Assembly (NCBI RefSeq): GCF_013122565.1
Contig: NZ_CP053258.1
Reading direction: 5' to 3' (one strand)
DNA from: Escherichia coli
GTDB taxonomy: Bacteria; Pseudomonadota; Gammaproteobacteria; Enterobacterales; Enterobacteriaceae
Length of the DNA: 64,000 nucleotides
Shown here: piece by piece, positions 12,317-33,717 of the stretch
Layout: every line of letters begins with the position of its first letter
Numbering within the stretch: the first letter of the stretch is position 1
Position numbers and translations under genes: made by a program
The notes under the pieces: model-generated
Told to the model about the DNA's origin: nothing
Database searches by the model: none
What the model saw: the letters and a program-made list of their open reading frames with translations, nothing else

Positions 12317-13257
12317 TTGAATACCTTCGCATCACTAAATGCTTTACGACAATGCATAACTCGTTGCTGATCCACGCCAGCAAAATCATTTAACATATTC
12401 CCCAAATAGGGCTTATTACTTATTTCAAGGAAAGCTACCGGGGTTGGCATATTCAGAAATGTATCGAGAGATTCAGTCCATTTCACCGTATGAGTTAAGT
12501 GTAATGAGAGATTTTCTTTGATAATTGACGGAGCGACCTCGCTTTTTGCTGTTACGTTCATCAGAACCTGATGCTCTGGCGAAGCGATATCCAGTCCGGC
12601 AAGATAATCGCGCATTGCCTGAACGCCGTCTTCCATCAAACGCGTGTGCCAGGCACCGCTCACACCGAGTTTAACCGGTTCGTACCCAGCGGCCATCAGC
12701 AGCGTGGCAAATTCATTCAACGCAGTCTGCGTTCCCCCAATAACCTGCTGGCGCGGCGTGTTATCACAGCTAATATCCAGCGCAATGCCTGATTCCGTAA
12801 TCATCGTCTGCAGTTGTTCGCGGTTGATGCCTTTAACCGCCAGCATTGCGCCTTTATTTCTCTGGCTTTCGTCATGCATCAGGCTGGCTCTGAAGTGAAT
12901 CATGCCAAATAGCGTCTCAAGAGAAATAGCTCCAGCGGCGTAGAGCGCACTGTATTCACCAACGCTGTGTCCGCAGGAGCCCACAACCGTTAAATTCTCA
13001 AGACGCTCGCGGCACAGGGTATAGAGCGTTACATTAATTGCGGTCACCGCCAGTTGTTGTACCGTCGTTTGAATAAGGCGATTCATCGGCCCTTTCTGAC
13101 ACAGGCGACGCAGGTTCAGTCCGGAAATATCGCTGGCACAATCCCAGATATGTTTTGTACTGGCGTTGAGATCCCAAAGATCGCTGCCCATACCAATAAC
13201 CGGATTACCCTGACCGGCAAAAAGCAGTACTGTCGGTTGTGAAGCATTATTCATCAT
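12313..13257 (-). CDS. Malonyl-CoA:ACP transacylase-like acyltransferase (FabD family)
   Basis: FAGQG N-terminal motif and GHSVGE active-site serine motif. Confidence 0.8.
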
Positions 13258-14656: not shown

Positions 14657-15441
14657 TTCGCACCTCGCTGAATATACTCTTTGGTGAAATGAAACTCTGG
14701 CAGCGATTCCAGACGAACATCGCTGTACTCCATCACTGAATAGTTATTGCCGTGACGGACATCGGTAACGGTTATTTTCATGGGTCGCGTTTTCCCCAGC
14801 ACCGGCTGGAAATCCTGATACAACACTTCTTTTATTAACTGGTCATCCTGCGAGTAATAGGCCGCCTTCCACGGGCGATTATCACCGTCTTTTTCAACGT
14901 AATAGATAACCTTCGGCCAGGTGATATCCGCCGATTTACGCACAAGCGCCAGCTTGTAACACTGCTTTTCAGCACAAGAGACTTCCCCCACAAGGGTCGA
15001 GTCATAGGCATATTCAAAGTTAGTGACAATGACATCGCCGTTAGAGATTTGCCCAATTAATCTTTGTTGCCGTGAAATAGGCATCGGACGTCGCAGTTCC
15101 GGCGTGTAAAACCATAAATCGTACCAGTCGGAAAGCATGACTTTTCCTTTATCTCGCGGCGGATAAATAAAACGCACCAGCGAGCGCGCATCCGCTTTTT
15201 CATTACCCAGCGGTTTCATAAAACGCATGGAAATATCGAGGACCTGTTTATTCTCTGGCTGGGTTACGCCCGCTTTATATTCCGTTACCGTCAGCGTGTA
15301 ACGAAACGGTTTATTCGGCGAACGAATTTCGTCAGCGCGACGAATTATATCCAGCGCCTTATTATCTGTGCTCGCCGCCTGAACGCACGACGTAGCGAGC
15401 CACAGGCAAGCAAACCACTTGCCGTAAAAAGCCATATTCAT
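14653..15441 (-). CDS. Secreted LolA-like / lipoprotein-sorting-like protein (tentative), 262 aa
   Basis: Signal peptide; size and context next to FtsX-type permease and OMP; assignment by context and recollection of similar clusters. Confidence 0.4.
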   Translation of the reverse strand: MNMAFYGKWFACLWLATSCVQAASTDNKALDIIRRADEIRSPNKPFRYTLTVTEYKAGVTQPENKQVLDISMRFMKPLGNEKADARSLVRFIYPPRDKGKVMLSDWYDLWFYTPELRRPMPISRQQRLIGQISNGDVIVTNFEYAYDSTLVGEVSCAEKQCYKLALVRKSADITWPKVIYYVEKDGDNRPWKAAYYSQDDQLIKEVLYQDFQPVLGKTRPMKITVTDVRHGNNYSVMEYSDVRLESLPEFHFTKEYIQRGAK

Positions 15442-15449
15442 AATCAGTC

Positions 15450-16760
15450 CTACGAGAATTTAAATGCGTCAGAAATATTCAGCCGGGAAGCACGTAAAGC
15501 CGGTAACACAGAGGCACCTGTTGCTGTCAAAATAGGTAATACCACCGTCACCCAAATCAATTCCGGGTTACTGGTTTTTATAAAGGCGGTATAGCCGATG
15601 GTTTGTCCCGGCGATGGCGGCATCGCAATACCATAAAGATTAATAATCCAGGCTAGCGCCCCCCCCACCAGTAGGCTACCGACTGCGCCAATCACACCAA
15701 TAAAAATGCCTTCCGTCAGAAACAAGCGCGTGACGTGAAGCGGCTTCAGGCCTATGGCACGCAGAGTGGTAATTTCACGGGTGCGTTCAGCAATGTTCAT
15801 TGCCATCGAATTGCTGATCATGAAGATGACAATCAGCGCAACAATCAGCTTGATGAAGAAATAGATCCCCGACAGTAACCCCTCAACCTGTTGATAAAAG
15901 AGTGAAACATCACGCCAGTCTTTGACCACCAGCGGCAAATGATTGCGTTCAATAAACTGACGCAGCTTAGCGCTAAACGCCGCGGTGTCATCCTCTTTTA
16001 GCAGGATAAGCACTTTGCTGACGCCATCCGTACCCATCATGCGCTGCGCGGTGTCCAGCGGGATCTTCATCGCGACATCGTCATAATCTTTAATGCCTGA
16101 CTCAAAAATGCCACGCAGTTTTAGCGACAATGCGCCCTGCCCGCCCGCCGTGTTGACGACCATCACATCCAGCCAGTCGTCATATTTCGCATTCAACGTT
16201 TTCGCCAGACCGCTGCCCAGGGTGATTTCATCACCTTTTACCCGGGAAAGATCGCTCCCCGCGATAATCTTATCGAACGAGCCCAGCTTTAAAGCGGGTA
16301 ACGGCTCCACCCCTAGCGCGGAGAAATAGCTGGAGGTTTCGCTCTCGTAATGTGAAATTACGCCAGTAAACTCCAGTTGCCCGGAGAGCGTGGAAATATC
16401 CGCCGCCAGCGTCGGGTCCGACAAAATAGCTTTCTTTAACGCCGCATAATCGGCAATCAGGCTCTTATTTTTATTCGACGTTTCAAAATAGTGCTGATTG
16501 TAAATCTGTACATGACCAATATTGGTACGAATCGTCTGCTCTTTCAGGATCCAGAAAGAGTAATCAATAAATCCGCCATATAAAAAAATTGCCACGCCAC
16601 CCAATACAATGGCGGTTATAGTAGAAAAAGAGCGACGCTTGTGGCGAAAGAGATTCAAAAATGCAAATTTGACATCTCGTGAATAAAACAGAAGCTGATA
16701 AAACACAAAAAACAGAATCAGCAGCAGAACGCAATTAACAGCTAAAATTTCCCCGGACAT
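15450..16760 (-). CDS. ABC transporter permease, FtsX/MacB/LolCE family (N-terminal TM, large periplasmic domain, C-terminal 3-TM bundle)
   Basis: Topology and C-terminal FtsX-like segment; start codon abuts stop of upstream gene. Confidence 0.65.
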   Translation of the reverse strand: MSGEILAVNCVLLLILFFVFYQLLFYSRDVKFAFLNLFRHKRRSFSTITAIVLGGVAIFLYGGFIDYSFWILKEQTIRTNIGHVQIYNQHYFETSNKNKSLIADYAALKKAILSDPTLAADISTLSGQLEFTGVISHYESETSSYFSALGVEPLPALKLGSFDKIIAGSDLSRVKGDEITLGSGLAKTLNAKYDDWLDVMVVNTAGGQGALSLKLRGIFESGIKDYDDVAMKIPLDTAQRMMGTDGVSKVLILLKEDDTAAFSAKLRQFIERNHLPLVVKDWRDVSLFYQQVEGLLSGIYFFIKLIVALIVIFMISNSMAMNIAERTREITTLRAIGLKPLHVTRLFLTEGIFIGVIGAVGSLLVGGALAWIINLYGIAMPPSPGQTIGYTAFIKTSNPELIWVTVVLPILTATGASVLPALRASRLNISDAFKFS

Positions 16761-17417
16761 TTACTCACCTTTCATCAGCGGCAGCAGTACCTGGGTTAAC
16801 TCTTCACTATCCCATTCTGGTACAACATTAAAATCATGCGTCAGCGACTGCGCTAGCGCGGTGTTTTGCCCTTTAATTTGCGCCAACAACGCATTCGCGC
16901 GGGTGGTGTCCTTGCAGTGACGTAATGCGCGATAACGCATCGCCAGAATATGGTCGCGGATCGTTGTCGTCCATATCGCCGGGTCAGCCAGCATGTGTTC
17001 GGTATCTTTGACTGTCACCACGCAACGCCCTGAATCTGCGGGTAAATAGGCATCTACGCGGGCACGTAAATACCGTACGCGTTGATTTTTCTCCTGCAAA
17101 TCCACCGCTTCATCCAGCCAGAAAAAGCCGCTTTTGGCGTATTCTGAGGCATGGATAAAATCGTTTGTTGCCGCATAACTGTCTGCCTGACGCAGTAAGC
17201 CATAGGCATAAAAAACCAGCGCCACCACATTGTGCCTGGCGTCATACTCTTTCTTTAACGCCTCGGTCAGCATCGCCAGCGCGGCAGGCTGCGCCGGGAG
17301 CCCCTGTTGCAGAACCTGGTTAACGGCGTCGGGTGTTGCCGCGTAAATCTTCGGGGCCAAAAACGCCGCGTACAAAAAGACGCCGATGAGCAAAAATCCT
17401 TTATGCATCTGAGTCAT
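16761..17417 (-). CDS. Secreted hypothetical protein, 218 aa
   Basis: Signal peptide [26 protein letters not shown]; overlaps ABC ATPase gene end. Confidence 0.4.
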   Translation of the reverse strand: MTQMHKGFLLIGVFLYAAFLAPKIYAATPDAVNQVLQQGLPAQPAALAMLTEALKKEYDARHNVVALVFYAYGLLRQADSYAATNDFIHASEYAKSGFFWLDEAVDLQEKNQRVRYLRARVDAYLPADSGRCVVTVKDTEHMLADPAIWTTTIRDHILAMRYRALRHCKDTTRANALLAQIKGQNTALAQSLTHDFNVVPEWDSEELTQVLLPLMKGE

Positions 17418-18108
17418 GAATCAATACTCCATCCTGAATTTCAACCACTCGCCGTGCCCGCGCTTTTAATTCGCTGGAGTGCGTGGAAATAACAAATGTG
17501 GTGCCTGTCTGCTGATTAATCGTCAACAGCAGGTCCAAAATAGCCTCGCCGGTTGACAGGTCTAAATTTCCCGTCGGTTCATCGGCAATGACCACCATCG
17601 GTTCGTGTGCCAGTGCCCGGGCGATGGCGACACGCTGTTGTTGACCGCCCGATAGTTGCCCAGGTTTGCGATCGCCAAAACCGCTTAATCCGACGCTATC
17701 GAGATAATGCAGCGTCCGTTCAGTGGCTTCTTTTTTACTGAACTGGCCATTAAGCACCAATGGGAAATAAACGTTATCGAAAACATTTAATACCGGCATA
17801 AGATTAAAAAACTGAAAAATAAAACCCAGATGTTTTCCACGAATCACAGCTAACTGCTCTTCCGGCAGTTGGTTCAGTAATTTATTTAAAAATATCACCG
17901 TTCCGCTGGTCGGTTTATCAATACCCGAGAGAATATTCAACAGAGTACTTTTACCACTGCCTGATGGCCCACACAGTGCGAGAAATTCGCCTTTATTGAT
18001 ATCAAGATTAATGCTTTTAAGCGCATCAACCTTTCCTGCCCCGGCACCATAACACTTGTAAATGTTGCTAAGCGAAATAGCGGGCAACGATTTAATAGTA
18101 GATTGCAT
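17401..18108 (-). CDS. ABC transporter ATP-binding protein (LolD/MacB-type), ~235 aa from ATG 18108
   Basis: Walker [10 protein letters not shown], signature [15 protein letters not shown], Walker B VVIADEPT; start chosen downstream of the 317-aa gene stop with AGGA upstream. Confidence 0.85.
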
Positions 18109-18118
18109 ACGACTGTCG

Positions 18119-19072
18119 TTATCCTTCAAGGTATTCAAGGTCAAAGTAGTGATAACCAAACTGTTTATCGGCAATGACCGTACGCATTTTTCCACCGGGC
18201 TGAATATGACGGGTTAAATAATCCATACTCAGCGCGGGCGTCAGACAACCGCTTTCTCCGTAATGGGCTACCAGGTCGATAACGCCAGCAGCAGGCCGGG
18301 ACGGCATTTGTCGCCGTTCGCTGAAGGCCATGACATCAATATCCGTAGCATGCTGTGGCGCAGTGCCGGAATGATATTCCCCGCATTGCAGCCTGATGGC
18401 GCTCTCACGCTGGCTGAGAATAAAACAACCCACGCGTTCAACAGATAAATTCACCTCATCAGCACGACGGGGGAATAAACGCTTAGGCGGTTTACCCACA
18501 TCCTCTTCAGAGAATACCAGTACCGGAATTGCCCGATAGGCAGCGCAAATCACCACGTTATCGAATACATCCCAGGCGAGATAATCCTGCGCCATACGCA
18601 GCGCCTGAACGAATGCCTGTTTTTCGCCACGAATTTTGCAAGTCGGCTCAGTTATCGAAAACTTCTTAAGTAAATTCTTGGGAAGCGTATCAATAGTGGC
18701 GATATGCAGCGCACTGGAAATTTTTTCAAACGGACCGGATTCGCCCCAGGAATCGGCATAAATAAATGCCGTGCGCGATTTCATTAACTTCATGCGTTCT
18801 TTAGTCGGCATTTGTTGTAATGCAGAATCGGTCACCTGCTCCATCGCCTCAAGGTAAGGCATATATTGCGGATTACGGATCCGTTCCGGCGCATAAATAT
18901 CGTTCTCAACGCCAAAGCGCTTCAGCCCCCAGCCATTAGCACGGGTGCCATATAATCCTCTTTCGTACATATGTGCTTCCCAGGCGTTGAGCCAGGTCGG
19001 CTGATAAAAATAAAAAATGTCGTCCGGTTCCGTAAGCGCCCAGGAAGACAGGTAGATACTCTTTTCCGTCAT
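18119..19072 (-). CDS. Hypothetical protein, 317 aa, unknown function
   Basis: ORF in operon context, 4-bp overlap with upstream KS gene; no motif recognised. Confidence 0.5.
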   Translation of the reverse strand: MTEKSIYLSSWALTEPDDIFYFYQPTWLNAWEAHMYERGLYGTRANGWGLKRFGVENDIYAPERIRNPQYMPYLEAMEQVTDSALQQMPTKERMKLMKSRTAFIYADSWGESGPFEKISSALHIATIDTLPKNLLKKFSITEPTCKIRGEKQAFVQALRMAQDYLAWDVFDNVVICAAYRAIPVLVFSEEDVGKPPKRLFPRRADEVNLSVERVGCFILSQRESAIRLQCGEYHSGTAPQHATDIDVMAFSERRQMPSRPAAGVIDLVAHYGESGCLTPALSMDYLTRHIQPGGKMRTVIADKQFGYHYFDLEYLEG

Positions 19073-20292
19073 TTCGCGCGCCCCGCTTGCATATTTGACA
19101 TAACAACGCCAATAACCGAACCATCGACACCCACACCAACCTTCAGCAAATGGCGTTTGCTATGGTTTGTCACGCTGCCGTCCGTAAGTACCAGCGAAGC
19201 CATGCTGTCGATAATGACGTCGTTACCAACAGGTGCGATCAGTTGATGATGCGTCAACGAATGGTGGCCAATGATCAGATCGACAACACCGGATCCGGTT
19301 GCGGTATAGCCGATCTGCCCTTTATAGGCGAGAACGGGGATCTGCCGCTCCCCTGCGAACATGGTGATGGCTTTGGCTTCCGCGTTATCGCTCACTGCCG
19401 AACCGTTGCCGTGTGGAAGAATGGCTGCAAGATCATCCAGCGCAATTTCAGCCTGCTTCATCGCGGCCTGCATGACCTTGTGCACGTTAGTGCTAAGCCA
19501 GGAGGCATCGTTGCTGCGGCCCGCGCTGATTTGGGTGTAAGTCGTTTGCACCCTTACGCCCTCACTTTGTTGACGCGCCCGGCGGTGATGAGCGCTTTCC
19601 AGTAGGAGCGCGCTAAAACCTTCTGCGAACGCCACACCTTTACTGTTTTCACCAAACGGCTGAACCTGTTCGCTGTCCAGCATCGATTGCGTTTCCAGGA
19701 ACCAGATATCCTGGGTTTTAATTTTCGAACAGTTCAGCACAATCGCGAGATCAATCCCGCCCTGCTCAATGCCCTGCGTCGCCAGATGCACCGCAGTCAG
19801 TGACGAGTTACTGGTGCAGTTCATGTTAGGCGGCAAATACTGCAAGCGATATTTGCGCGCAAGATGGCTTGAAATCGTGTCCTGCGACATCTTTGAGGCA
19901 TGCAGATTTGTGATGGATTGCGTTAAGTTGATATCTTCTACATCGTTGTAATTATAGAAAGATTTGTAATCCAGCCCGTCGATACGCGGCCCAATACCGG
20001 TCAGATAAACGCGAACGTTGCGCCCGGCCAGGCAATGCTTATCCAGCATTGCCTGTTCCAGGGCTTCGTCGATCAACTGAGACAGCAGGTCCAATGCGCT
20101 ATCGTCCACCTGTTTCAACGTCGCCACTGACGGATTACCCTTAAACCCGCATTTAATGGCTTCCTCGTTGGAGGTAAACCAGGGTGTACGCGCAACGCGT
20201 TTCCCCTGTTTCAGATTGTCAATTAACTGCGAACAGTCTTCGGCATACGGCATCCACACGCTGTAACCCGAAATAATAGCGGCATTGTCCAC
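19069..20292 (-). CDS. Beta-ketoacyl synthase-like protein (start uncertain; GTG 20292 proposed, longest ORF to 20358)
   Basis: Active-site-like NCTSNSS cysteine and HGNGS histidine motifs; thiolase-fold length. Confidence 0.7.
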   Translation of the reverse strand: MDNAAIISGYSVWMPYAEDCSQLIDNLKQGKRVARTPWFTSNEEAIKCGFKGNPSVATLKQVDDSALDLLSQLIDEALEQAMLDKHCLAGRNVRVYLTGIGPRIDGLDYKSFYNYNDVEDINLTQSITNLHASKMSQDTISSHLARKYRLQYLPPNMNCTSNSSLTAVHLATQGIEQGGIDLAIVLNCSKIKTQDIWFLETQSMLDSEQVQPFGENSKGVAFAEGFSALLLESAHHRRARQQSEGVRVQTTYTQISAGRSNDASWLSTNVHKVMQAAMKQAEIALDDLAAILPHGNGSAVSDNAEAKAITMFAGERQIPVLAYKGQIGYTATGSGVVDLIIGHHSLTHHQLIAPVGNDVIIDSMASLVLTDGSVTNHSKRHLLKVGVGVDGSVIGVVMSNMQAGRAK

Positions 20293-20296
20293 AGTC

Positions 20297-22855
20297 TTAT
20301 CCCTTAATGACGAACGCGTAGTAGTTGCCGCCTTCCGTTGCGCCAACAAGCAGGACATGGTTCAGCGCAAGTTTCATCGACTGGCGTACAAAATTCACAC
20401 GCTCATCAAAGAATTCCACCGTATTTGGAATCGCAGGTACTGCCTGCTTCTTAATGCAGTCAGTAATCACGGCGAGGTTAAGCAAACCAGCGGCAGAGGC
20501 GACAAAACCAAAGCAAGCGTTGTAGTTCACTACCGGCACCGCCGGGTTTTGCGCAGCGAAGGTGTTGTAAATGGCGTCAATTTCGATACGAGAATGGTCA
20601 TCGCTGCCGTTGCTGGTACCACAGACCAAATCAATATCGCCAGCAGAGATGCCCGCATGCGTAAGGGCGCGTTCAATGGCCAGCGCCATCGACGCGGATT
20701 TTTCTTCCAACAATGAGGCGTCGAAGTAGGTATTACTACATGACTTACCGTAGCCCACCACTTCCGCGAGAACCTCAGCGCCACGCGCCGCAGCCAACTG
20801 TGGATCTTCCAGCAGCAGCATGCAGGCACCCTCGCCCGGAACATAACCCTGCGGATCTTTACCGTAAATTTGATAGTCGCTCGCCTCAGCCGTCATGTGG
20901 ATCTTTTGCGTCACCGCATCCATATACAGCGACATAGACGGGAAGTACTCATCCGCGCCGCCAACCAATACCTGCGGTTGCAGGTTCTGCCGGACGATTT
21001 CATAACCGTAGGTCAGCGCGCCCAGCGCCGAGTTTTCCCCTGTCGCAAGCGTAGTGGTATACCCTTTGATCCCTTCAGAGATCCCGCAGAACGTTGGGAT
21101 CGCATTCATCAGCGAGCCAGGAAATTCCGACGTACGTACTTTGCGTGGATCGGGTTTCAGACTTTGCAGATATTTGTAGGTGGTTTCCTGCGGACCGCGG
21201 GACATCCCCATGATCATGCCCAGCTCATCGCCATCGCGTTTGATTTTACGCTTCGCCTGTTCCAGCGCTTCGGTGAGTGCGATCAGGGCAAACGTGCCGC
21301 CACGGGTCGCTTTACGCTGATCGAAACGACGCAGGTGTTTACGCGGCTCCAGCCCGGAAACCTGGAACGTTTTAAAGTTGCTTGCCGTTTCCGGAAGCGT
21401 AGCGTCGCTGAAGCTGTACTCTTCATCAAACAGCTCGGCAAACTGGTTTGATTCATCCAGCACGGCCAGCAGCTCTTTGGCTTCTTCCAGTGTATCGTCC
21501 GGGAAGGTTACGCTACCCAGTTCAACGTGGTGGTCCTGCGCCCAGATGTTTTCCAGAACCTGGTTGAGCGTGTGGCCTATTGCGGATACTGCACCGACGC
21601 CCGAGATAGCCACACGCTTCGAATCATAGGTACTGACCGGAATGGACGCGGGCTCCATGCTCAGGATCATGCAGCAATTGTTGCCGCCGAAGGCATAGTT
21701 ATTCTTCATGAAGATGTTCACTTTGCGATCGCGAAATTCATTCGGCACATAGTCCAGATCGCAATTCGGGCGTGCCTGGCTGAAATTCAGCGTCGGCAGT
21801 ACGCGGTTGTCCGGCAGTGTTGCCAGACAGGCAATCAGTTCCACAATCCCCGCTGCGCCAATGTTGTGGCCAAAGTAAGATTTGGTGGAGCTCACCAGCA
21901 GTTTATCGTGGTTAGCGAAGACCTTTTTCATTGCCAGCGTTTCGATACGGTCATTGGCTTCGGTACCCGTACCGTGCGCGTTGACGTAATCGATTTGCTC
22001 CGGGGTTACGCCCGCATTTGCCATTGCCTTGTTCATGACCTGCACCGCTCCGCTGGCACGCGGATCTGGCCCGGTTTCATGGAAAGCATCGCAGGAAGTG
22101 GCGTAAGAGAGGATCTCACCATAAATGGTCGCCCCGCGTGCTACGGCGTGCTCATACTCTTCCAGCACGATAGCGCCAGCGCCTTCACCAATCGACATAC
22201 CGGACTGACCCGAGAACGGCGTACAAGTGTCTGGATGCATGACATTCAGTGCGTAGAATCCGGCAAAGGTCGGCAGATAGATGGGCTCGGTACCTACTGC
22301 CAGCATGGTTTTGCTTTTACCATTCTGGATGTAGTCAAAGGCCATCCCCACGGCGTTCGGGCTGGCGGTACACGCGGTCGCCACCAGTTCAACCCCGCCC
22401 TGTAAGCCCAGCAGCGTTGAAACGCTGGAACAACATGATGAGAACGCGCCGGAAAAAAGTGCTTTGCGCAGCGAGAAATCTTCCATGCGCTGTTCGAACA
22501 GCGGTAAAAAGGCCTCTGTACCCGCGGAGGAAACACCGACGATCATGCCTGTTTCTTTGAGAGTGTCACGGCTATCCATCAGGCCGGCCTGACTCAGCGC
22601 ATCTTTACCCACTTTGTAGGCCCAGAGCGCTGCGTTATCCAGTGAATCGATAACATCTTCGTTCAGATCGGAGTATTCAATGTCATGCAACACTTCTGCC
22701 GCACGCGCATTTTCAAACCATTTTGCAAAGCGTTCGCTATCCTTAACGCCATTTTTTTTATTTAATAATGCTTCCCGGAAATCCTGAATATTTTCCGCCA
22801 GTGAGGACAAAATCCCCAGCCCGGTAATAACAACTCTTTTCCTGTTCGTTTTCAT
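20297..22855 (-). CDS. Fused ketosynthase / chain-length-factor-like protein (KS-CLF), 852 aa
   Basis: N-terminal half has TACTAS Cys, HGTGT and GHNIGAAG motifs; C-terminal half is KS-like but lacks the active-site Cys. Confidence 0.8.
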   Translation of the reverse strand: MKTNRKRVVITGLGILSSLAENIQDFREALLNKKNGVKDSERFAKWFENARAAEVLHDIEYSDLNEDVIDSLDNAALWAYKVGKDALSQAGLMDSRDTLKETGMIVGVSSAGTEAFLPLFEQRMEDFSLRKALFSGAFSSCCSSVSTLLGLQGGVELVATACTASPNAVGMAFDYIQNGKSKTMLAVGTEPIYLPTFAGFYALNVMHPDTCTPFSGQSGMSIGEGAGAIVLEEYEHAVARGATIYGEILSYATSCDAFHETGPDPRASGAVQVMNKAMANAGVTPEQIDYVNAHGTGTEANDRIETLAMKKVFANHDKLLVSSTKSYFGHNIGAAGIVELIACLATLPDNRVLPTLNFSQARPNCDLDYVPNEFRDRKVNIFMKNNYAFGGNNCCMILSMEPASIPVSTYDSKRVAISGVGAVSAIGHTLNQVLENIWAQDHHVELGSVTFPDDTLEEAKELLAVLDESNQFAELFDEEYSFSDATLPETASNFKTFQVSGLEPRKHLRRFDQRKATRGGTFALIALTEALEQAKRKIKRDGDELGMIMGMSRGPQETTYKYLQSLKPDPRKVRTSEFPGSLMNAIPTFCGISEGIKGYTTTLATGENSALGALTYGYEIVRQNLQPQVLVGGADEYFPSMSLYMDAVTQKIHMTAEASDYQIYGKDPQGYVPGEGACMLLLEDPQLAAARGAEVLAEVVGYGKSCSNTYFDASLLEEKSASMALAIERALTHAGISAGDIDLVCGTSNGSDDHSRIEIDAIYNTFAAQNPAVPVVNYNACFGFVASAAGLLNLAVITDCIKKQAVPAIPNTVEFFDERVNFVRQSMKLALNHVLLVGATEGGNYYAFVIKG

Positions 22856-22928: not shown

Positions 22929-24089
22929 TTACGCAGCGCTTTTATTTTTTGACGCGTCGATATAACTGTGCTCAGTTGGGCTAACCAACATGCTCAGGTT
23001 ATAAATAAACGGCATACATTTTGATTGCGCCGGAATAATTCCGTGAGCAGTTTGAATTTCGTAGCCGCTGATGTCAGACCAGGCGTAATCATTATCCAGC
23101 AGAGTCAGGGCAATGAAACGCTGCAACGCTGGGGAAAAGAGTGCCTTCACGATATAGCCCACGTCTTGACCTTCCACCAGCACACGATCGCCAGCCTCAA
23201 TGCCTTCGCATTCTTCCTGAGCGATCATGCCGATGAGTTTATTACCGGTATACTCCTGGGAGAGCTCTGTCACCGCGTCCTTGCCAATAAAATCATCTTT
23301 GTCGTACTGCACCGCCCACTGCATCTGCAACTGAACCGGATTCACTGCCTGACCTTCCCAGAGGCTGGCATCCCAGCACGGATTTTCGAGGCGTACGATT
23401 TTTTGATAATCCAGGCCGCCGGTCTGCATCAGGTATTTCTCGCCGACGGTTAACAGTTTTTCCCACTGCTCCGCCAGTTTCGCCTGCTCACCGATGGTCA
23501 TGTACGCATACTCACCGTGTTTACCACAGCGGAAGATCAGCAGATCCTCCTCGGTATTCATGTATTCGTAGTAAGGCAGGCCAATAACGTCAAAGCCATG
23601 AATTTCAGACATGATCTCCCAGGAGTATGGGCCTTCGAGCAGGATTGCCCCCCAGTTGTTTTCCCGCATATCCTGAATTTCAGGCATCGATTGAATATCC
23701 AGTTCTTCCGCTTTTTCGAGAATGGTATTCATGCTGGCGATCAATTCGGCAGCCGAAATATCTTCTGAAAGCAGGTAATAACCGTCAATGCTGCACAGCA
23801 CATAGACGTCTCCGCGAATGGTGCCCTCTTCATTCAACACCAGTGAGTAGATTGCCTGCTCATCACGAATGATGGAGACATCTGCGGAAACCAGCTGGTT
23901 GATCAGCGCCCAGGCATCATCGCCCATGACGCTAACAATAGAGAGGTGAGAATAGTCCACCAGCAGCGCGTTTTCACGAACGGCTTTATATTCGGTCATA
24001 GCATCGTGATAAGAAGAAGGTAGGGTACGGTTGTTATATACCCCCATTACCGCATTATTTTTCAAGTGAAATTCAGCAAGAGATTTCAT
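22929..24089 (-). CDS. GcvT-like aminomethyltransferase-family (folate-binding) protein, 386 aa
   Basis: Overall resemblance to glycine-cleavage T family N-terminus; assignment tentative. Confidence 0.5.
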   Translation of the reverse strand: MKSLAEFHLKNNAVMGVYNNRTLPSSYHDAMTEYKAVRENALLVDYSHLSIVSVMGDDAWALINQLVSADVSIIRDEQAIYSLVLNEEGTIRGDVYVLCSIDGYYLLSEDISAAELIASMNTILEKAEELDIQSMPEIQDMRENNWGAILLEGPYSWEIMSEIHGFDVIGLPYYEYMNTEEDLLIFRCGKHGEYAYMTIGEQAKLAEQWEKLLTVGEKYLMQTGGLDYQKIVRLENPCWDASLWEGQAVNPVQLQMQWAVQYDKDDFIGKDAVTELSQEYTGNKLIGMIAQEECEGIEAGDRVLVEGQDVGYIVKALFSPALQRFIALTLLDNDYAWSDISGYEIQTAHGIIPAQSKCMPFIYNLSMLVSPTEHSYIDASKNKSAA

Positions 24090-24124: not shown

Positions 24125-24406
24125 TTAATCGTTGTTCTTTTGAATAACGAAGGTGGCCAGACTATTGATACTGCGCATATAGGACGGGTCGTCACTTTCG
24201 CTGATCTTGATATCAAATACTTTATCCAGCAGAACGACAATTTCCGTTGCATCGACGGAGTCCAGTTTAAAACCATTACCAAACAGCGCAGTATCATCAT
24301 CAATTTGCGCTTCATCGCGTTGAATATTCAGTCGCTGGATGATCTCAGTTTTAATGGTCATCAGAACTTCTTTACGCTGTTCAATAGCGTCATTCATGGT
24401 AGACAT
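24125..24406 (-). CDS. Acyl carrier protein
   Basis: FKLDSVDATEIVVLLD phosphopantetheine-attachment motif; small acidic protein. Confidence 0.75.
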   Translation of the reverse strand: MSTMNDAIEQRKEVLMTIKTEIIQRLNIQRDEAQIDDDTALFGNGFKLDSVDATEIVVLLDKVFDIKISESDDPSYMRSINSLATFVIQKNND

Positions 24407-24427: not shown

Positions 24428-24976
24428 TTACTTGGTTTCACGGAAATTGATAATGGTGCCCTGACTAATCAGCTTTTTACCGACGTACGCGGTCACGGAA
24501 TAGTGTTTAAAGCCACTGGCATCCGAAAAAGCCAATTTGCTGACAACATCAATAGAATCACCCGGATAGGCGATATCTTTAAATTTCAGGTTCTGAGCAG
24601 CCAGCACGCCGCGTACCTGGCTGCGCCGGGTACGGATAATCTCCAGCATTTCAGGGCGGTGAATGCGTGCGTGAATATCACGTAACGACTTCAGCTCTTC
24701 CTCAAAACGTTCGCGCCAGATATCGCAAATGTCGGTCAGGAAAGAGAGATACTCGCTGGCCTGGCCGAAGATTTCCGAAATAATCACCCCGGGCATAATC
24801 GGATCTTCCGGGAAATGCCCCAGTAGATACGGTTCGTTATAGGTGACGTGCTTCACGACACTGACAAAGCCATTTTCACCGTATTTATAATCTGCAATTT
24901 TATCGACCATCAGCAGCGGCTGACGCCAGCCGCCCATTTCGAGGAAGATTTTCGAAGGAATCGTGTATTTGGACAT
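24428..24976 (-). CDS. FabA/FabZ-like hot-dog beta-hydroxyacyl-ACP dehydratase
   Basis: HFPEDPIMPGVIISEIFGQA matches the FabZ catalytic His region. Confidence 0.65.
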   Translation of the reverse strand: MSKYTIPSKIFLEMGGWRQPLLMVDKIADYKYGENGFVSVVKHVTYNEPYLLGHFPEDPIMPGVIISEIFGQASEYLSFLTDICDIWRERFEEELKSLRDIHARIHRPEMLEIIRTRRSQVRGVLAAQNLKFKDIAYPGDSIDVVSKLAFSDASGFKHYSVTAYVGKKLISQGTIINFRETK

Positions 24977-24979
24977 AAA

Positions 24980-25744
24980 TCACCGCATGACCAGGCCGCC
25001 ATCGATAACGATGGTCTGGCCGACAATGTAGCTGGAGGCAGAGGAACTTAAGAAGACGATGGTGTTCGCCACTTCTTCACATTTACCCAGACGGCGTAAC
25101 GGGATGGTACTGGTTACCGCACGGACCACTGCGCGGGATACTTTTTTCACCATTTTCGATTCAATCATTCCCGGTGCGACCGCGTTGACGCGCACGCCCC
25201 AGGGTGCCATTTCTGCTGCCAGCGTGCGGGTGAAGCCTAGGATCGCCCCTTTTGACGCGCTGTAATTCGCCTGACCGACGCTTGGGATCAGCGCTGCAAT
25301 AGAGGCAACGTTAATAATGGCGGGATTTTCTGCCGCACGAAGCAACATCAGCGCGTCTTTCGTCAGACGGAAAATGCTGAACATGTTGGTTTCGATAACT
25401 TGGGTGAAATCCTCATAGCTCATCGAGGCAAACAGGCTGTCTTTAACGATGCCCGCGTTATTCACCAGCACATCAATCTTGCCAGCTTCGCGCTCTATCT
25501 GTTCGCACAATGCGCTCACACTCTGGGGGCAGGCGAGATCGCACTGCACAATATGCAGTTTATCGCCTGCAGGATGGCTTGCTTTCAGCGCCGTTAATTG
25601 CACGTCGTTGGATTTATAGAGCGCATAAACATCGCAGTTCTGCTCCAGATATTTTTCACAAATACCCAGTCCAATATCACCACTGGCTCCTGTCACCAGT
25701 ACGGTTTTTTCATTTAAATCATTATATTTGTACATATTCATCAT
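24980..25744 (-). CDS. 3-oxoacyl-ACP reductase-like SDR (FabG family)
   Basis: TVLVTGASGDIG Rossmann motif, NNAG, YSASK catalytic Tyr-Lys; start set at internal Met to avoid overlap with PPTase. Confidence 0.85.
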   Translation of the reverse strand: MMNMYKYNDLNEKTVLVTGASGDIGLGICEKYLEQNCDVYALYKSNDVQLTALKASHPAGDKLHIVQCDLACPQSVSALCEQIEREAGKIDVLVNNAGIVKDSLFASMSYEDFTQVIETNMFSIFRLTKDALMLLRAAENPAIINVASIAALIPSVGQANYSASKGAILGFTRTLAAEMAPWGVRVNAVAPGMIESKMVKKVSRAVVRAVTSTIPLRRLGKCEEVANTIVFLSSSASSYIVGQTIVIDGGLVMR

Positions 25745-25754
25745 ATATGTTGAG

Positions 25755-26123
25755 TTAATAAACGATGACAGTCGCAATGGCGTGGGTACGGCAATGCGAA
25801 ATACTCAGGGAGTTATTTTGCAACCCCTGCCCGAGAAAAATTTCTTGTAGTCTTCCGGAAATAACGAAATAAGGTGCTTTGGCCGCATCATGCTTTATTT
25901 CAATATCCTGGAAACGTACGCCATCACGAAAACCACAACCAATCGCTTTAACTAACGCTTCTTTCGCCGCCCAGAATCCAGAGGCCCGTTCATAATCAGG
26001 TTCTGCAGGATTAATGAGTAAGCGCTCATGAGCAGTATAAACACGCTCATAAAAAGCCATCTCTCCATTAATAATGGCTTTGGTTATTCTGGCAATTTCA
26101 ACAATATCTGTTCCTATTCTCAT
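25755..26123 (-). CDS. AcpS-type 4'-phosphopantetheinyl transferase (holo-ACP synthase)
   Basis: [14 protein letters not shown]-terminus and [11 protein letters not shown], both AcpS-like; 15 nt after tpsB stop with AAGGA SD. Confidence 0.8.
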
Positions 26124-26138: not shown

Positions 26139-27758
26139 TTACATTTGGTACGAAAAATTAAAATTTATATTCACCCGATCAATATCTAATGTCGCCGGGT
26201 ACTTTAATGGGGTAGAAACGGAAAAGTTATACTCAAGACTTTTTATGTTTCCATCAATACCAACTGCCGCGCCCACCAGTGATTCATCGCCATAAGAAGC
26301 GTCCTGATACACTTGCCCAAAATCAAGACCGGCATAATAATTAGCTTTCATTCCAGGCAAAGGAAATGCCAGCGTATTTTTTATATAAAAACCATCATTC
26401 CCTGACAAACCTACGCTATTTTCAAACCCGCGAATACTCCAACGATCGCCAACTGTAATTTGATCTTGCAAAGTCAGTTCACACGGTGCGTACTGGGCAA
26501 AAAAAGCGGTATTGTAATATCCATTATCTATTTGTCGGGTATAGTTACCCTCAAAATTAAAGATATTGCTTACCGGGCTAACGTCGCCATATTGCATATT
26601 CGGCGTTTTTTCACCACCGAACCAAGTTAAAAAGCGTTGCCACGAGAGGGTTGAATCCCAGAACGCGCCGGGTAACTGTTGCTTATAATTTAGCCCCAGC
26701 TTGATATTTCCCATATCCCGCGCCTGTAATGTCAGCTCCTCACCATTAAGCGTGTAATTCGACTTTCGTCGAATGAGTTCTGCACTCCCGGCGAATTTTT
26801 TTGTTTTATCGCGATAAACGGTACGCGTCGCCTTTGCGCTCAAGTATTCGCTGGTGCCAACATAATCCAGCGAGATGTACGAAAGCGGAATCACCTGCTG
26901 CGATTTACTTTTGCTATAGAAAAAGCCGTACTCCCAGTACCCCACCGGAATGGAATAATAGCTACTGACGTTTTCGTACTGTCCAGTAGTACTACGCGTA
27001 CCGGCGAGATAAAACAGATCCCCCATTTTCGCTGGATTAAACAGATAACCCACCGCGGTTGTCTGGTAACGGCCCGTTTCTTCATCGCCCCAATTGTTGT
27101 AACTTGCCCGAACGCTCCAGTTTTTGCCCCGGTGTGTATCAATATGAACGATGCTGTAACCATCCCGTGTTCCCGGTTCAATATTAATTTTCACATCAAC
27201 GTCAGGTACTCGCTGAAGATTTTCCAGCCCCTGTTCAATATCGCGAATATTGAGAATATCGTTACGCTGAAAAGGTAACATCCATTCACTGATATCATTA
27301 CCTTCCACAATCGTTTTTTCTATCTTCCCGGCATTAACCTGGAAACGTAGCTTGCCTTTAGAAATATCCTGCGAAGGGATACTAATTCGCGTTGTGATAT
27401 ATCCGGCATTAATATAATAATCCTGCAAGGCAGCAGCAATTTTTTGCACACCAGCACTACCGACACAACGTCCGGCAATCGCTTTTTGCACTTCAGAAAT
27501 AAACTGACCATCCAGAAAGTTATCTTCCAGTTCAATCCGATTAATGATAAAGCAATTCTTTTCCTGCGGTAGATCACTCAGAGTAAACGCATTACGTTGT
27601 GCATTTGAGTAAACATCTTTTTTTTCTAATTTATGCGCGCGTAACGTGCTTTCATCTGCATTTTTTTGCTGCTTGATCAAATTATCAATACTGTCTTTCG
27701 CTGCAACCTGAAAACAACAAAGAATGAGCAGCAAACCAAAATTAAATCGTAATTGCAT
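26139..27758 (-). CDS. TpsB outer-membrane transporter (ShlB/FhaC/HecB family)
   Basis: Signal peptide, POTRA-region length, loop-6 SIRGFE (VRGY/F) motif. Confidence 0.8.
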   Translation of the reverse strand: MQLRFNFGLLLILCCFQVAAKDSIDNLIKQQKNADESTLRAHKLEKKDVYSNAQRNAFTLSDLPQEKNCFIINRIELEDNFLDGQFISEVQKAIAGRCVGSAGVQKIAAALQDYYINAGYITTRISIPSQDISKGKLRFQVNAGKIEKTIVEGNDISEWMLPFQRNDILNIRDIEQGLENLQRVPDVDVKINIEPGTRDGYSIVHIDTHRGKNWSVRASYNNWGDEETGRYQTTAVGYLFNPAKMGDLFYLAGTRSTTGQYENVSSYYSIPVGYWEYGFFYSKSKSQQVIPLSYISLDYVGTSEYLSAKATRTVYRDKTKKFAGSAELIRRKSNYTLNGEELTLQARDMGNIKLGLNYKQQLPGAFWDSTLSWQRFLTWFGGEKTPNMQYGDVSPVSNIFNFEGNYTRQIDNGYYNTAFFAQYAPCELTLQDQITVGDRWSIRGFENSVGLSGNDGFYIKNTLAFPLPGMKANYYAGLDFGQVYQDASYGDESLVGAAVGIDGNIKSLEYNFSVSTPLKYPATLDIDRVNINFNFSYQM

Positions 27759-27846
27759 TATCTTCTCAAACTAAATAAAGACAGCAGCAACCCCTGCGTG
27801 ACATGACGCATTAATATTAAATGCCACTGCTGTCTTTGGTTACATC

Positions 27847-30800
27847 TTACATGCCGACAATAGTACCGGTGTTGTCAGTTTCGTTTGCTTCTAACGCTAA
27901 ACCGTAGAAGCCACCGAGAACAGCGTCTTTACCGCTATTCGTAACCTTATTTGCCGATACGCCAGCGACACCATAACTCAGCATATTGAGGTAGTTATAA
28001 ATATTACCGGTGGTTTTAACACCCAGAGAATAATCACCCACAATATTTCCACGGTTATTAATGTCATTCACGGCATTGATCGCGATGGTTTGTCCCAACA
28101 TATTACTGTTGCTGTTGTTGGTAACATACTTCTGCGTATCAATAGTCAGCGCAGTTCCCGCCACAATGTCTTTAAAGTTCTCAACACCGTTCAGGGCATT
28201 AATGGTCAGCGCGTTGTCCGCTGCGATGGCATTACGGTTATACAGCGTGCCTTTCAGAACATTGAAATGCACATCCCCTTTACCGCTGATCCAACCATAG
28301 TTAGTGACGCTGTTATCAACGTTCAGATCTAGGTTTTTGTCAGACGCAATCACGCCCGTGGCGGTATTGTCTTCCAGACGACCATCACTGGCGTTACTCA
28401 ACGACGCCGCATAAACATCGAGATTACCGGCGCTGTAAGTGGTGGCATAGTTGTTGTAGAACATACCAGCCGCACGGATGATGGCATCAGCCCCACTGCT
28501 AAGAAGCGCGCGGGTATTATCCAGCGTTCCCCTGGACAGCAGATTAAGCGGACCATTTTCAGCGATGATGCTGCTGTTATTGTTGTAGACGTTCTGAGCA
28601 GAAAGCGTGACACCTTCTTTACCCACAATGCCACCAACGTTGTCAGTAATACCGAAAACTTCACCGTTATAACGCAGGAAGTTATTCCCGTCGCGGTTTT
28701 CGAGGTTGCCGCCAGCGTTAATAACCAGCTTTTTATTCGCCGCGATCAGCGCAGTGTTGTTGTAAATCGTCGATTTAGCATCGACAGAAACATTCTCACC
28801 GGCAATCAAACCATAGGCGTTGTCTACAATGTTCGCCGTCAGAGTCACGTCGCCCGTTTCAGAGGTCAGCGAGCCCTTAAAACTGTCGTAGTTGCCCGTC
28901 AGTGCCAGCGTGACGTCGTCATAACCACGAATTTCACCGTAGTCGTTGTTCAGATTGCTGCCTTTTACAGACAACACGCCGTTCAACGCATGCAGCTTAC
29001 CGCGGTTGTTACCCACGTTGCCCTTCGAATCGATAATCAGATCGCCTGTCGCTTCGATGGTCGCGTTATTGTTGGCCACGCTATTTGCCGTTAATGCGAC
29101 ATCCCCATAACCCACCATATAGAGATAGTTATACAGGTTGCCTTTGGTTGTCACGTTCAGGTCAACATCACTGACAATGTTGCCACGGTTGTTGATATCG
29201 TTAACCGCGTTAATAACGATATTCTGCCCCACCATATTGCTGTTGGAGTTGTTGGTCACATGGCGATTGGTGTTCATCGTCAGGTCGCCGCCAGCAGAAA
29301 TATCCTTCCAGTTTTCAATACCGTTCAGTGCTGCAATGTCCAACCCCTTTTCAGCCGCAATAGTATTGCGGTTGTACAGGTTGCCATTTTTCACCGTGAC
29401 ATCAACATCACCTTTACCGCTGATCCAGCCGTAGTTGGTAAGGCTATTCACCACTTCCAGTGACAGATTTTTGTCAGATGCAATGAACCCGGTCGCATTG
29501 TTATCGATCATCGTACCGCTGCTGCTGTTTTGCAGCGTGGTCGCGTCGATATCCAGGTTGCCCGCACTCCAGGTGGTAGCGTAGTTGTTGTAATACGTTC
29601 CGCCAACCTGAATAGATGCATCCGCCCCGCTGATGACCAGAGCTCGCGTGTTGTCGAACGTGTTCTGCGCCTGCAGAGTCAGAGGACCATCCTCAGCGAT
29701 AATACGGCTGTTGTTGTTATAGATGTTCTGCCCGGAAAGCTCGATGCCTTCCTTGCCGACCATTCCACCCGTTTGCTGAGGCATGCCGAAGTACTGACCA
29801 TAAGCATTACCGAAGTTATTGCCATCGCGGTTTTCGATACTGCCGCGCGCATTTATCTTCAGTTTTTTGCTGGCCACGATCAGCGCTGTGTTGTTATTGA
29901 CGCCAGACATCGACTCCATCGTGATGTTCTGCCCCATCATGAAGCCGCCGTGGTTATCCACGGAGTTGGCTAACAGGGAGATATCACCCTCTTCAGAGCT
30001 GATCACGCCAATATTATTGGTCAGGCTGCCGCCAACGGCGACTTCAATACCCTGCTTACCGCTGATCCCCCCGGTATCGTTACGCAGAGAGCTTCCCTTG
30101 ATAATCACTTTGCTGTTGGACAGAATTTTGCCCGCATAGTCGTCGATCGTGCTGTAACTTGACAGGGAGACGTTGCCATTAGACGCAATCTGTCCGCCAT
30201 TGTTATTGATGTTGTTCGCACCAATTTCTACGCCGGTATCTGCAATAATGCCCAGAGAGTCAGAACTGCCGGTATCGGCGGTTTTGGTTGAACCATTATT
30301 TACGCTACCTGCCGCACCAATAACGATATGCCCGGTGGACGAACGGATCAGACCTTTGTTGTTATCCACATTACCGTTACTGATAATGGCGATATCGCCA
30401 GTGGTCTGGATATCACCGCTGTTGTTATTCAACGCGCCTGATTCAAGCCCCACATAACCGCCGCGAATCTGACCATTGCTGTTGTTGAGCGTTCCGGTTT
30501 TCAGCGCCACGAGCCCCGCTTCAATCCCGACAGAACTCCCTTTACCAGAGTTAATCAGCGTGGCGTTATTGGTATCAACCGCCAGCATACCTGCTGCGGC
30601 GAGCTTGCCGTTGGTGTTATCAATCGTGCCACTGTTAACGTAGATATCGCCCATCGTAGAGATGTTACCCGCACGGGTATTCACGATAGTATTCTTGTTG
30701 GTATTAAGCGAGATAGTGCCTACAGATGTCACCGTACCGGTGGTGTTATCCAGAGTACCATTTGTTGTCAGGTTGATCGTGCTTGCAGACTGAATCTGGG

Positions 30801-33675: not shown

Positions 33676-33717
33676 TTAACTCGTTCTATATTAACTCTAA
33701 ATTTCAAGGATATTAAT

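What the first reader, a model, noticed from the sequence alone, without database searches (positions are those of the whole stretch)
20297..22855. Single-polypeptide KS-CLF fusion
The 852-aa protein has a complete ketosynthase (TACTAS Cys, HGTGT, GHNIGAAG) fused to a second KS-like domain without the catalytic Cys. In type II systems KS-alpha and KS-beta/CLF are normally separate proteins; fusion is reminiscent of PUFA-synthase-type architecture and argues for chain-length-controlled synthesis rather than housekeeping FAS.
Basis: seen in the sequence. Interest (0 to 1): 0.55.

Follow-up and report, generated by a model that had tools for sequence, protein, structure and literature searches.

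The report
Fused ketosynthase / chain-length-factor gene
One 852-residue E. coli protein joins a working fatty-acid/polyketide condensing enzyme to a catalytically dead copy of itself; it is real, conserved in many bacteria, and sits in an uncharacterised lipid-making and lipid-export operon of the O157:H7 island OI-47.

Summary

- **Domains.** Pfam finds two complete ketosynthase units. The N-half keeps Cys162/His294/His330/Lys325, invariant in 21 orthologues. The C-half has Glu/Thr/Phe at the triad positions.
- **Not an artefact.** One full-length match is present in 381 of 5426 complete E. coli genomes. About 100 protein clusters of roughly 852 aa come from many genera.
- **Fold.** The AlphaFold model superposes as a whole only on the PfaC KS-CLF didomain (6riw, TM 0.75). 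Single ketosynthase chains give 0.43.
- **The fusion is common.** 109 of the 150 best representatives found with the C-half are 700-900 aa double-KS proteins. Of these, 102 keep the triad in the first half only.
- **Operon.** The gene lies in a conserved operon: AcpS, KR, DH, ACP, GcvT-like, KS-CLF, a Ser/His/Tyr KS, a KASIII-fold protein, Lol-like exporter, MAT, YcdU. This is the FAS-like part of EHEC island OI-47.

Best reading: an intramolecular KS/CLF pseudo-heterodimer acting as the elongating enzyme of a dedicated type II FAS/PKS-like pathway. The product is an unknown exported lipid. Chain-length control is inferred, not shown. I rate it a new variant of a known kind, of moderate interest.

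The parts
20297..22855 (-). Fused KS-CLF gene, 852 aa plus stop codon
   Evidence: ORF list and translation; Pfam shows two KS units; RefSeq annotates the same full-length CDS
21656..22855 (-). N-half (residues 1-400): FabF-like active ketosynthase. Cys162 codon 22370-22372, His294 21974-21976, Lys325 21881-21883, His330 21866-21868
   Evidence: PDB hits to FabF at E 1e-72 and to 9s5h_B at 1e-77; NCBIfam PRK07314 436 bits, above the cutoff of 387; triad invariant in 21 orthologues; codons checked
21620..21655 (-). Short, poorly conserved linker (residues 401-412, EPASIPVSTYDS)
   Evidence: Alignment A1: linker identity is 8-83% while the flanks are conserved
20300..21619 (-). C-half (residues 413-852): catalytically dead KS-like (CLF-like) domain. 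Glu607 codon 21035-21037, Thr747 20615-20617, Phe784 20504-20506. A variable helical stretch at about residues 440-505 has no counterpart in the FabF alignment
   Evidence: Pfam; FabF alignments; orthologue columns; conservation profile peaks at residues 511-630
22929..24089 (-). GcvT-family (aminomethyltransferase-fold) gene directly upstream. The pairing is conserved
   Evidence: PF01571+PF08669; PDB T-protein hits; present beside fused KS-CLF genes in L004, L005, L087 and L089 and in the orthologous loci
24125..24406 (-). Dedicated acyl carrier protein (93 aa, LDS50 motif)
   Evidence: NCBIfam; sequence
24428..24976 (-). FabZ/FabA-like dehydratase
   Evidence: NCBIfam; Pfam FabA
24980..25777 (-). 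FabG-like ketoreductase (RefSeq start corresponds to window 25741)
   Evidence: NCBIfam; annotation
25755..26123 (-). AcpS-type phosphopantetheinyl transferase
   Evidence: NCBIfam TIGR00516 79.6 bits, above the cutoff of 59.8
19069..20292 (-). Third KS-like protein (407 aa from a GTG start, 4 nt after the KS-CLF stop). It has Ser at the Cys position, keeps His1 and has Tyr at His2
   Evidence: Pfam; PDB alignment; orthologue columns; start codon
18119..19072 (-). 317-aa protein with no Pfam, NCBIfam or PDB sequence hit. Predicted KASIII/OleA/DpsC-like thiolase fold, with no Cys at the predicted nucleophile elbow (invariant RGE)
   Evidence: no hits; AF2 pLDDT 82; Foldseek; motif conservation
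13268..18195 (-). Export module: LolD-like ATPase (17401-18195), 218-aa protein, LolC/E-like permease (15450-16760), LolA-like protein (14653-15441), 462-aa protein of unknown fold
   Evidence: NCBIfam; Pfam PF17131; conserved order
12313..13257 (-). FabD-like malonyl-CoA:ACP transacylase
   Evidence: NCBIfam; annotation
11330..12316 (-). YcdU, a protein with no family match; last gene of the conserved cluster
   Evidence: Annotation; orthologues at the cluster end in other genera
26139..31659 (-). TpsB (26139-27758) and TpsA (27847-31659) two-partner secretion genes, contiguous with the cluster and co-conserved in the closer genera
   Evidence: Annotation; tblastn matrix

Best explanation
The 852-aa protein is a genuine single-chain KS/CLF-type pseudo-heterodimer. 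The N-half is a FabF-like ketosynthase with an intact Cys-His-His-Lys site. I infer that it carries out the decarboxylative Claisen condensation of malonyl-ACP with the growing acyl chain. The C-half is a diverged ketosynthase copy that has lost all three triad residues. In the model it packs against the N-half as the second subunit of an ordinary KS dimer would, joined by a linker of about 12 residues. Its inferred role is structural: it enforces 1:1 pairing, completes the dimer interface and shapes the acyl-binding tunnel, and so the chain length or kind of chain accepted. The protein is probably the elongating enzyme of a dedicated type II FAS/PKS-like pathway. That pathway has its own AcpS, ACP, MAT, KR and DH, a conserved GcvT-like partner, and a second degenerate thiolase-fold pair (the Ser/His/Tyr KS and the KASIII-fold 317-aa protein). 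I infer that its lipid-like product is exported by a LolCDE/LolA-like system. Shown: domain architecture, residue states, conservation, predicted fold and gene context. Inferred: heterodimer-like packing in vivo, chain-length control, the nature of the product, and export.
For: Two KS units by Pfam. The N-half triad is invariant and the C-half triad absent in 21 orthologues at 55-88% identity. The model (pLDDT 75.6, pTM 0.85) superposes as a whole on the PfaC KS-CLF didomain 6riw (TMq 0.75 over 951 columns), while single KS chains reach only 0.43. One full-length match is present in 381 E. coli genomes, annotated as a single CDS where inspected, and about 100 clusters of roughly 852 aa come from many genera. 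The C-half evolves faster than the N-half (46-57% against 66-70% identity in the distant group), but it is most conserved at residues 511-630. By alignment to FabF these residues cover the pseudo-active-site region; that they form the interface is inferred. 109 of the top 150 representatives are fused, and 102 of these have CHH only in the N-half. Free-standing relatives of about 400 aa nearly all lack the triad, which marks the C-half as part of a clade of dead KS partners. The full operon is conserved in Enterobacterales, Acinetobacter and Paraburkholderia. A free-standing FabF-like KS plus dead-KS pair from anammox bacteria was shown to form a functional heterodimer (bioRxiv 10.64898/2026.05.19.726425). 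The top sequence hits 9s5h_B and 9s5h_C may be that pair, but this is unverified.
Against: There is no experimental data on this protein or on any member of its orthologous group, and OI-47 reviews discuss only GrvA. Model confidence is moderate, and residues 554-591 in the C-half fall below pLDDT 50. The Cys-equivalent residue is variable (E/Q/V/I), unlike the conserved Gln of classical CLFs, so any priming-decarboxylase role of that residue is unlikely. Strong conservation of parts of the C-half could reflect a function other than tunnel shaping. No enoyl reductase, thioesterase or off-loading enzyme is recognised in the operon, so the pathway logic is incomplete.
Confidence: 0.75

Rival explanations
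1. The C-half is not a chain-length factor. It has a different, specific job, such as a docking platform for the GcvT-like protein, the ACP or the KS3/h317 pair, or a new catalytic activity using other conserved residues.
For: Many residues are invariant in the C-half outside the dead triad, including Cys590, Cys745, the PDPRKVRTSEF segment and GGADE. The GcvT-like gene is a conserved neighbour of fused KS-CLF genes across distant lineages, which suggests a physical or functional partnership. The Cys-equivalent position is variable, so the classical Gln-dependent role is absent.
Against: The most conserved C-half segment (residues 511-630) aligns to the part of FabF that holds the active site, as expected for a CLF. 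The whole-model superposition on PfaC KS-CLF fits the ordinary dimer geometry. No alternative catalytic motif was identified.
Confidence: 0.2
2. The fusion is a relic or offshoot of a PUFA-synthase PfaC-type megasynthase (descent rather than convergence).
For: The order is the same, KS then CLF, and 6riw is the best whole-chain structural match.
Against: Identity to 6riw is only 18%. The N-half scores far higher against FabF models (454 bits) than against PfaA (81 bits, cutoff 1010). The polypeptide ends after the CLF-like half, and no DH didomain, PfaA/B/D or PfaD-type ER homologue is recognised in the operon.
Confidence: 0.08
3. The long ORF is an assembly or sequencing artefact, or a recent accidental fusion of two genes.
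For: None found. Truncated database entries exist (P0038 at 712 aa and P0120 at 470 aa), along with one deletion variant.
Against: One full-length match is present in 381 complete genomes, and every hit inspected carries a single intact CDS. The 852-aa length is kept down to 55% identity in many genera. Fused relatives occur down to 25% identity.
Confidence: 0.01
4. It is a redundant housekeeping FabF paralogue with a degenerate appendage and no specialised pathway role.
For: The N-half passes the NCBIfam FabF subfamily cutoff.
Against: It is accessory, present in 382 of 5426 genomes. It is embedded in a 15-17-gene conserved operon with its own ACP, AcpS and exporter. The C-half is under clear purifying selection.
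Confidence: 0.03

Closest known systems
PfaC KS-CLF didomain of bacterial PUFA synthases (PDB 6riw)
   Same: An active KS is followed by a Cys-less CLF-like domain in one polypeptide. It is the best whole-chain structural match (TMq 0.75).
   Different: PfaC continues into DH domains and works within a pfaA-E megasynthase. Here the polypeptide is the didomain alone, in a dissociated (type II) system. Identity is only 18%, and no Pfa partner genes are present.
Free-standing KS/CLF heterodimers of type II PKSs: actinorhodin KS-alpha/KS-beta (1tqy), ishigamide Iga11/Iga12 (6kxd), aryl-polyene ApeO/ApeC
   Same: An active KS is paired with a dead KS homologue, and the gene context has ACP, KR and DH. 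The highly reducing examples also lack an ER.
   Different: Those pairs are separate proteins. The classical CLF has a conserved Gln at the Cys position, whereas here it is E/Q/V/I. The C-half matches FabF (E 6e-21) better than the act CLF (7e-14).
Anammox ladderane-cluster amxFabF2/amxFabFmut heterodimer (bioRxiv 10.64898/2026.05.19.726425); PDB 9s5h B/C may be this pair
   Same: A FabF-like active KS pairs with a FabF-like dead partner (Val/Thr at the Cys position) in a FAS-like rather than aromatic-PKS context. 9s5h_B is the best sequence hit for the N-half (E 1.4e-77), and 9s5h_C also hits the C-half (E 4e-17).
   Different: Those are two genes and two chains. That cluster carries radical-SAM enzymes, which are absent here. 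The identity of 9s5h with that work could not be verified from the text.
E. coli FabF (KAS II)
   Same: The N-half has the same fold, triad, Lys and FGG loop, and passes the FabF subfamily model.
   Different: FabF is a homodimer of about 410-aa chains and is housekeeping. Here the partner subunit is fused, dead and accessory. The N-half is below the FabF equivalog cutoff (454 against 493.75 bits).

Membership tests
Beta-ketoacyl-ACP synthase II (FabF/KAS II) family, N-half | Thiolase-fold KS with PF00109 + PF02801 | tested here: met
   Pfam E 7e-30 and 1.5e-35
Beta-ketoacyl-ACP synthase II (FabF/KAS II) family, N-half | Cys-His-His catalytic triad plus conserved Lys | tested here: met
   C162, H294, H330 and K325 are invariant in 21 orthologues
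Beta-ketoacyl-ACP synthase II (FabF/KAS II) family, N-half | Score above the curated NCBIfam cutoffs | tested here: inconclusive
   Subfamily PRK07314 436 bits, above 387. Equivalog TIGR03150 454 bits, below 493.75
Chain length factor (KS-beta) of type II PKS, C-half | KS fold with the catalytic Cys replaced | tested here: met
   Pfam; Glu607 at the Cys position, with both His also lost
Chain length factor (KS-beta) of type II PKS, C-half | Conserved Gln at the Cys position | tested here: not met
   The position is E, Q, V or I among orthologues, and G/A/P/V and others among distant fused relatives
Chain length factor (KS-beta) of type II PKS, C-half | Forms a 1:1 dimer with the active KS | tested here: inconclusive
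   Prediction only: AF2 pTM 0.85, and whole-chain superposition on 6riw at TMq 0.75.
Chain length factor (KS-beta) of type II PKS, C-half | Determines product chain length | not testable with these tools
   Needs biochemistry or mutagenesis
PUFA synthase (Pfa) system | KS-CLF in one polypeptide | tested here: met
PUFA synthase (Pfa) system | KS-CLF followed by FabA-like DH domains in PfaC, with PfaA (KS-MAT-ACPn-KR), PfaB and the PfaD ER in the operon | tested here: not met
   The protein ends after the CLF-like half. The PfaA model scores 81 bits against a cutoff of 1010. The neighbours are discrete AcpS, KR, DH, ACP and MAT
Aryl polyene (APE) gene cluster | Separate ApeO/ApeC pair plus ApeR, an adenylating or starter-forming enzyme, an MMPL exporter, and glycosyl/acyl-transferases | tested here: not met
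   Only generic parts are shared (KR, FabA-like DH, LolA-like). No adenylation enzyme, MMPL or transferases are recognised
Anammox ladderane cluster I | amxFabF2/amxFabFmut pair together with radical-SAM enzymes | tested here: not met
   No radical-SAM protein is recognised among the operon's ORFs. The KS pair is fused here

The most novel reading that the evidence does not exclude
The fused KS-CLF and its conserved GcvT-family neighbour may define the core of a widespread, undescribed class of type II FAS/PKS-like pathways, found from Enterobacterales to uncultured lineages. In that reading a folate-type C1/aminomethyl enzyme acts on an ACP-bound chain, three degenerate thiolase-fold units programme the chain, and the product is a new kind of lipid placed in the outer membrane by a Lol-like route. 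In EHEC O157:H7 and its relatives this lipid would be functionally coupled to the adjacent two-partner-secretion adhesin or toxin.
Probability: 0.3. Interest if true: 0.75.

Novelty: new variant of a known kind. Interest (0 to 1): 0.5.

Why it matters
KS/CLF pairing is the programming device of type II polyketide synthases, and a 2026 preprint reports it for a fatty-acid-like pathway. A natural covalent KS-CLF that stands alone, outside a megasynthase, shows that evolution has repeatedly fixed the 1:1 pairing by fusion. It also offers a convenient single-gene handle for expression, structure determination and engineering of such enzymes.

This gene marks an orphan 15-17-gene lipid biosynthesis and export operon in island OI-47 of E. 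coli O157:H7, and in Proteus, Serratia, Klebsiella, Enterobacter, Acinetobacter and Paraburkholderia. Its product is unknown. The conserved GcvT-like partner has no precedent that I could find in FAS/PKS chemistry. Finding the product could reveal a new envelope lipid of an important pathogen.

Tried and rejected
- **Plus-strand reading.** Stop codons throughout, so the gene is on the minus strand.
- **Artefactual fusion.** Rejected by conservation.
- **Second active site in the C-half.** Rejected. No Cys or His occurs at the triad positions in any orthologue. A BLASTP self-alignment with a 3-residue offset was resolved using HMMER, MAFFT and the model's secondary structure.
- **Membership of PUFA, APE or ladderane clusters.** Defining partner genes are absent.
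- **Literature.** Searches for OI-47, GcvT plus ketosynthase, KS-CLF fusion, ladderane/antiSMASH/O157, EDL933 locus tags that I guessed, and the PDB code 9S5H found no characterisation of these genes. The link between 9s5h and the anammox preprint could not be verified.
- **Sequence searches for the 317-aa protein.** No hit in Pfam, NCBIfam or PDB. Only structure prediction identified its fold.
- **Promoter and terminator scan of the operon.** Nothing above chance.
- **Short metagenomic contigs L002 and L003.** Little context.
- **Model coordinates.** Not available to scripts, so no interface or tunnel analysis was possible.
Full report
**1. Observation**

The interval 20297..22855 contains one ATG-initiated ORF of 852 codons on the minus strand. 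The plus-strand frame is broken by stops.

Pfam finds two complete ketosynthase units:
- PF00109 and PF02801 at residues 6-358 (E 7e-30 and 1.5e-35).
- The same pair again at residues 413-811 (E 3e-16 and 3e-9).

The N-half carries ATAC162TAS, H294GTGT and K325...GH330NIGAAG. The triad positions in the C-half are Glu607, Thr747 and Phe784. Three lines of evidence agree on this:
- HMMER alignment to FabF structures.
- MAFFT alignments.
- The strand-loop-helix register of the AlphaFold model.

A BLASTP self-alignment (25% identity between the halves, E 1e-16) shifts the first site by three residues. There is no cysteine in that elbow in either register. The halves are joined by a variable linker of about 12 residues.

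**2. Is it real?**

The same DNA is found in 382 of 5426 complete E. coli genomes.
- In 381 of them it is a single full-length match. Every hit inspected carries one intact CDS, including the O157:H7 strain examined.
- The one exception is a deletion variant.

A protein search returns about 100 clusters of roughly 852 aa at 55-99% identity. The named ones come from Kosakonia, Enterobacter, Klebsiella, Serratia, Proteus, Providencia, Pantoea, Mixta, Rahnella, Aeromonas, Acinetobacter and Neisseria.

A scan of species-representative genomes adds Morganella, Erwinia, Paraburkholderia, Desulfatitalea and Arenicella.

In 21 aligned orthologues, C162, H294, K325 and H330 are invariant.

**3. Fold**

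An AlphaFold2 model built on the orthologue alignment has mean pLDDT 75.6 and pTM 0.85. Against the PDB:
- The best hit is 6riw, the PfaC KS-CLF didomain, with query-normalised TM 0.75 over 951 columns.
- All single ketosynthase chains plateau at TM 0.43, which is one half of the query.

Both halves therefore superpose at once on a known intramolecular KS/CLF pseudo-dimer. Identity to 6riw is only 18%.

By sequence, the N-half is closest to 9s5h_B (E 1.4e-77) and to FabFs (about 1e-72). The C-half is closest to FabFs (6e-21) and also matches 9s5h_C (4e-17) and the actinorhodin CLF (7e-14).

A 2026 preprint shows that a FabF-like active KS and a dead paralogue from anammox bacteria form a functional KS/CLF-like heterodimer. 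9s5h may be that structure, but I could not verify this.

**4. How unusual is the fusion?**

I searched 1.84 billion representative proteins with the C-half alone.
- Of the 150 best hits, 109 are 700-900-aa double-KS proteins.
- 102 of those 109 keep Cys-His-His in the first half, and the triad is generally lost in the second.
- The hits of about 400 aa are nearly all free-standing dead KS proteins.

The C-half thus belongs to a broad clade of catalytically dead KS partners that occur both free and fused. Among its nearest relatives, fusion is the majority state. I found no paper describing free-standing KS-CLF fusions outside PUFA synthases.

**5. Context**

The gene lies in a tightly packed minus-strand operon. 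In order:
- TpsA, TpsB, then AcpS, a FabG-like KR, a FabZ-like DH, an ACP and a GcvT-family protein.
- KS-CLF.
- A third KS-like protein, starting 4 nt after the KS-CLF stop, with Ser/His/Tyr at the triad positions.
- A 317-aa protein with no sequence-level match. Its model (pLDDT 82) has a KASIII/OleA/DpsC-like thiolase fold, with an invariant RGE at the predicted nucleophile elbow.
- A LolD-like ATPase, a 218-aa protein, a LolC/E-like permease, a LolA-like protein and a 462-aa protein.
- A FabD-like MAT and YcdU.

No enoyl reductase, thioesterase or transferase was recognised.

This is the FAS-like part of O-island 47 of EHEC O157:H7. The reviews I read discuss only the regulator GrvA.

A tblastn matrix shows that AcpS through MAT is conserved in order in about 45 genomes of Enterobacterales, Acinetobacter and Paraburkholderia. 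TpsA and TpsB are co-conserved in the group at 70% identity or above.

Fused KS-CLF genes at only 25-40% identity (measured on the C-half), from unrelated metagenomic contigs, have a similar gene set:
- A GCV_T gene sits beside or near the fused gene in four of five contigs, and a fifth candidate is cut off at a contig end.
- ACP, KR, an ApeI-like DH and a MAT occur in most of them.
- Several also carry a KS of about 410 aa followed by a protein with no Pfam match, together with ABC/FtsX and LolA-like export genes.
- One contig carries three fused KS-CLF genes in tandem.

**6. Mechanism**

*Shown.* There is one canonical condensing site per polypeptide and a conserved dead partner domain. The C-half evolves faster overall but is most conserved at residues 511-630, which align to the FabF region around the pseudo-active site. 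The protein is encoded beside dedicated carrier, priming and processing enzymes.

*Inferred.* The protein folds as an intramolecular KS/CLF pseudo-heterodimer, with these roles:
- The N-half elongates an ACP-bound chain with malonyl-ACP.
- The C-half guarantees stoichiometric pairing and shapes the acyl tunnel.
- KR and DH process each β-keto group.
- Lacking an ER, the chain is either unsaturated or hydroxylated, or is reduced by host FabI.
- The KS3/317-aa pair and the GcvT-like enzyme perform priming, branching or off-loading chemistry that is not yet known.
- A Lol-like machine moves the product to the outer membrane.

The variable residue at position 607 argues against a Gln-type decarboxylase role for the C-half.

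**7. Comparison and novelty**

- It works like a KS/CLF pair and looks like the PfaC didomain, but it is not a Pfa, APE or ladderane system, because the defining partner genes are absent.
- It is not a classical KS-beta, because there is no conserved Gln and its sequence affinity is to FabF.
- The gene has been in databases since the first O157:H7 genomes under generic names.
- The architecture as a free-standing unit of a dissociated pathway, and its conserved pairing with a GcvT-family gene, appear undescribed in the literature I could search.

I rate it a new variant of a known kind, with interest about 0.5.

Noticed in passing
window 11330-13257; locus L086 (NZ_CP143392.1) 7433-9987: The orphan K-12-type gene ycdU is the last gene of this operon. 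In strains with the pga-dgcT-IS3 arrangement, an IS3 abuts a MAT pseudogene that lacks its N-terminus, followed by ycdU and tRNA-Ser. ycdU DNA is in 2662 of 5426 genomes, against 382 for the KS-CLF gene, so most E. coli that carry ycdU have lost the KS-CLF part of the cluster.
   Followed up: partly
window 26139-31659: The two-partner secretion genes (TpsA, 1270 aa; TpsB, 539 aa) are on the same strand, with 15 bp between TpsB and AcpS. They are co-conserved with the lipid cluster in about 20 genera, which hints at a functional link between the exoprotein and the lipid.
   Followed up: partly
window 22929-24089; loci L004, L005, L087, L089: A GcvT-family aminomethyltransferase-fold gene is a conserved neighbour of fused KS-CLF genes even at 25-40% identity. 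The T-protein-type Asp and the D-x-SH motif are conserved in 51 orthologues. No known role in FAS/PKS chemistry was found.
   Followed up: partly
window 18119-20292: There is a second pair of degenerate thiolase-fold proteins: a KS with Ser/His/Tyr at the triad positions, and a 317-aa KASIII/OleA/DpsC-like protein with an invariant TCK-RGE motif and no Cys at the predicted nucleophile elbow. They may form a second heterodimer, as PqsBC does.
   Followed up: partly
locus L005 10001-17460: A metagenome-assembled genome (GCA_041739875.1) has three fused KS-CLF genes in tandem (827, 812 and 843 aa), downstream of an ACP gene and a GcvT-like gene.
   Followed up: no
window 9160-11051: An IS200/IS605-type TnpA ORF (10542-11051) and a tyrosine integrase (9160-10251) lie just beyond ycdU, yet ARAGORN finds no tRNA anywhere in the window, although tRNA-Ser follows ycdU in strain HD12480 (L086). 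The integrase ORF's C-terminal sequence may be disrupted.
   Followed up: no
window 31660-35065: A low-GC (about 35%) gap of roughly 1.4 kb lies upstream of tpsA. It is followed by plus-strand ORFs at 33052-33675, 33718-34278 and 34343-35065, which correspond to the hypothetical protein, fimbrial protein and fimbrial chaperone genes annotated beside tpsA in strain SS17.
   Followed up: no
locus L091 (NZ_CP133871.1) 2150-4618: E. coli strain ES5 carries a deletion that removes the first 941 bases of the KS-CLF gene. Its annotation lacks a separate tpsB and the AcpS, KR, DH, ACP and GcvT-like genes, and shows a chimeric 822-aa CDS next to a frameshifted tpsA.
   Followed up: no
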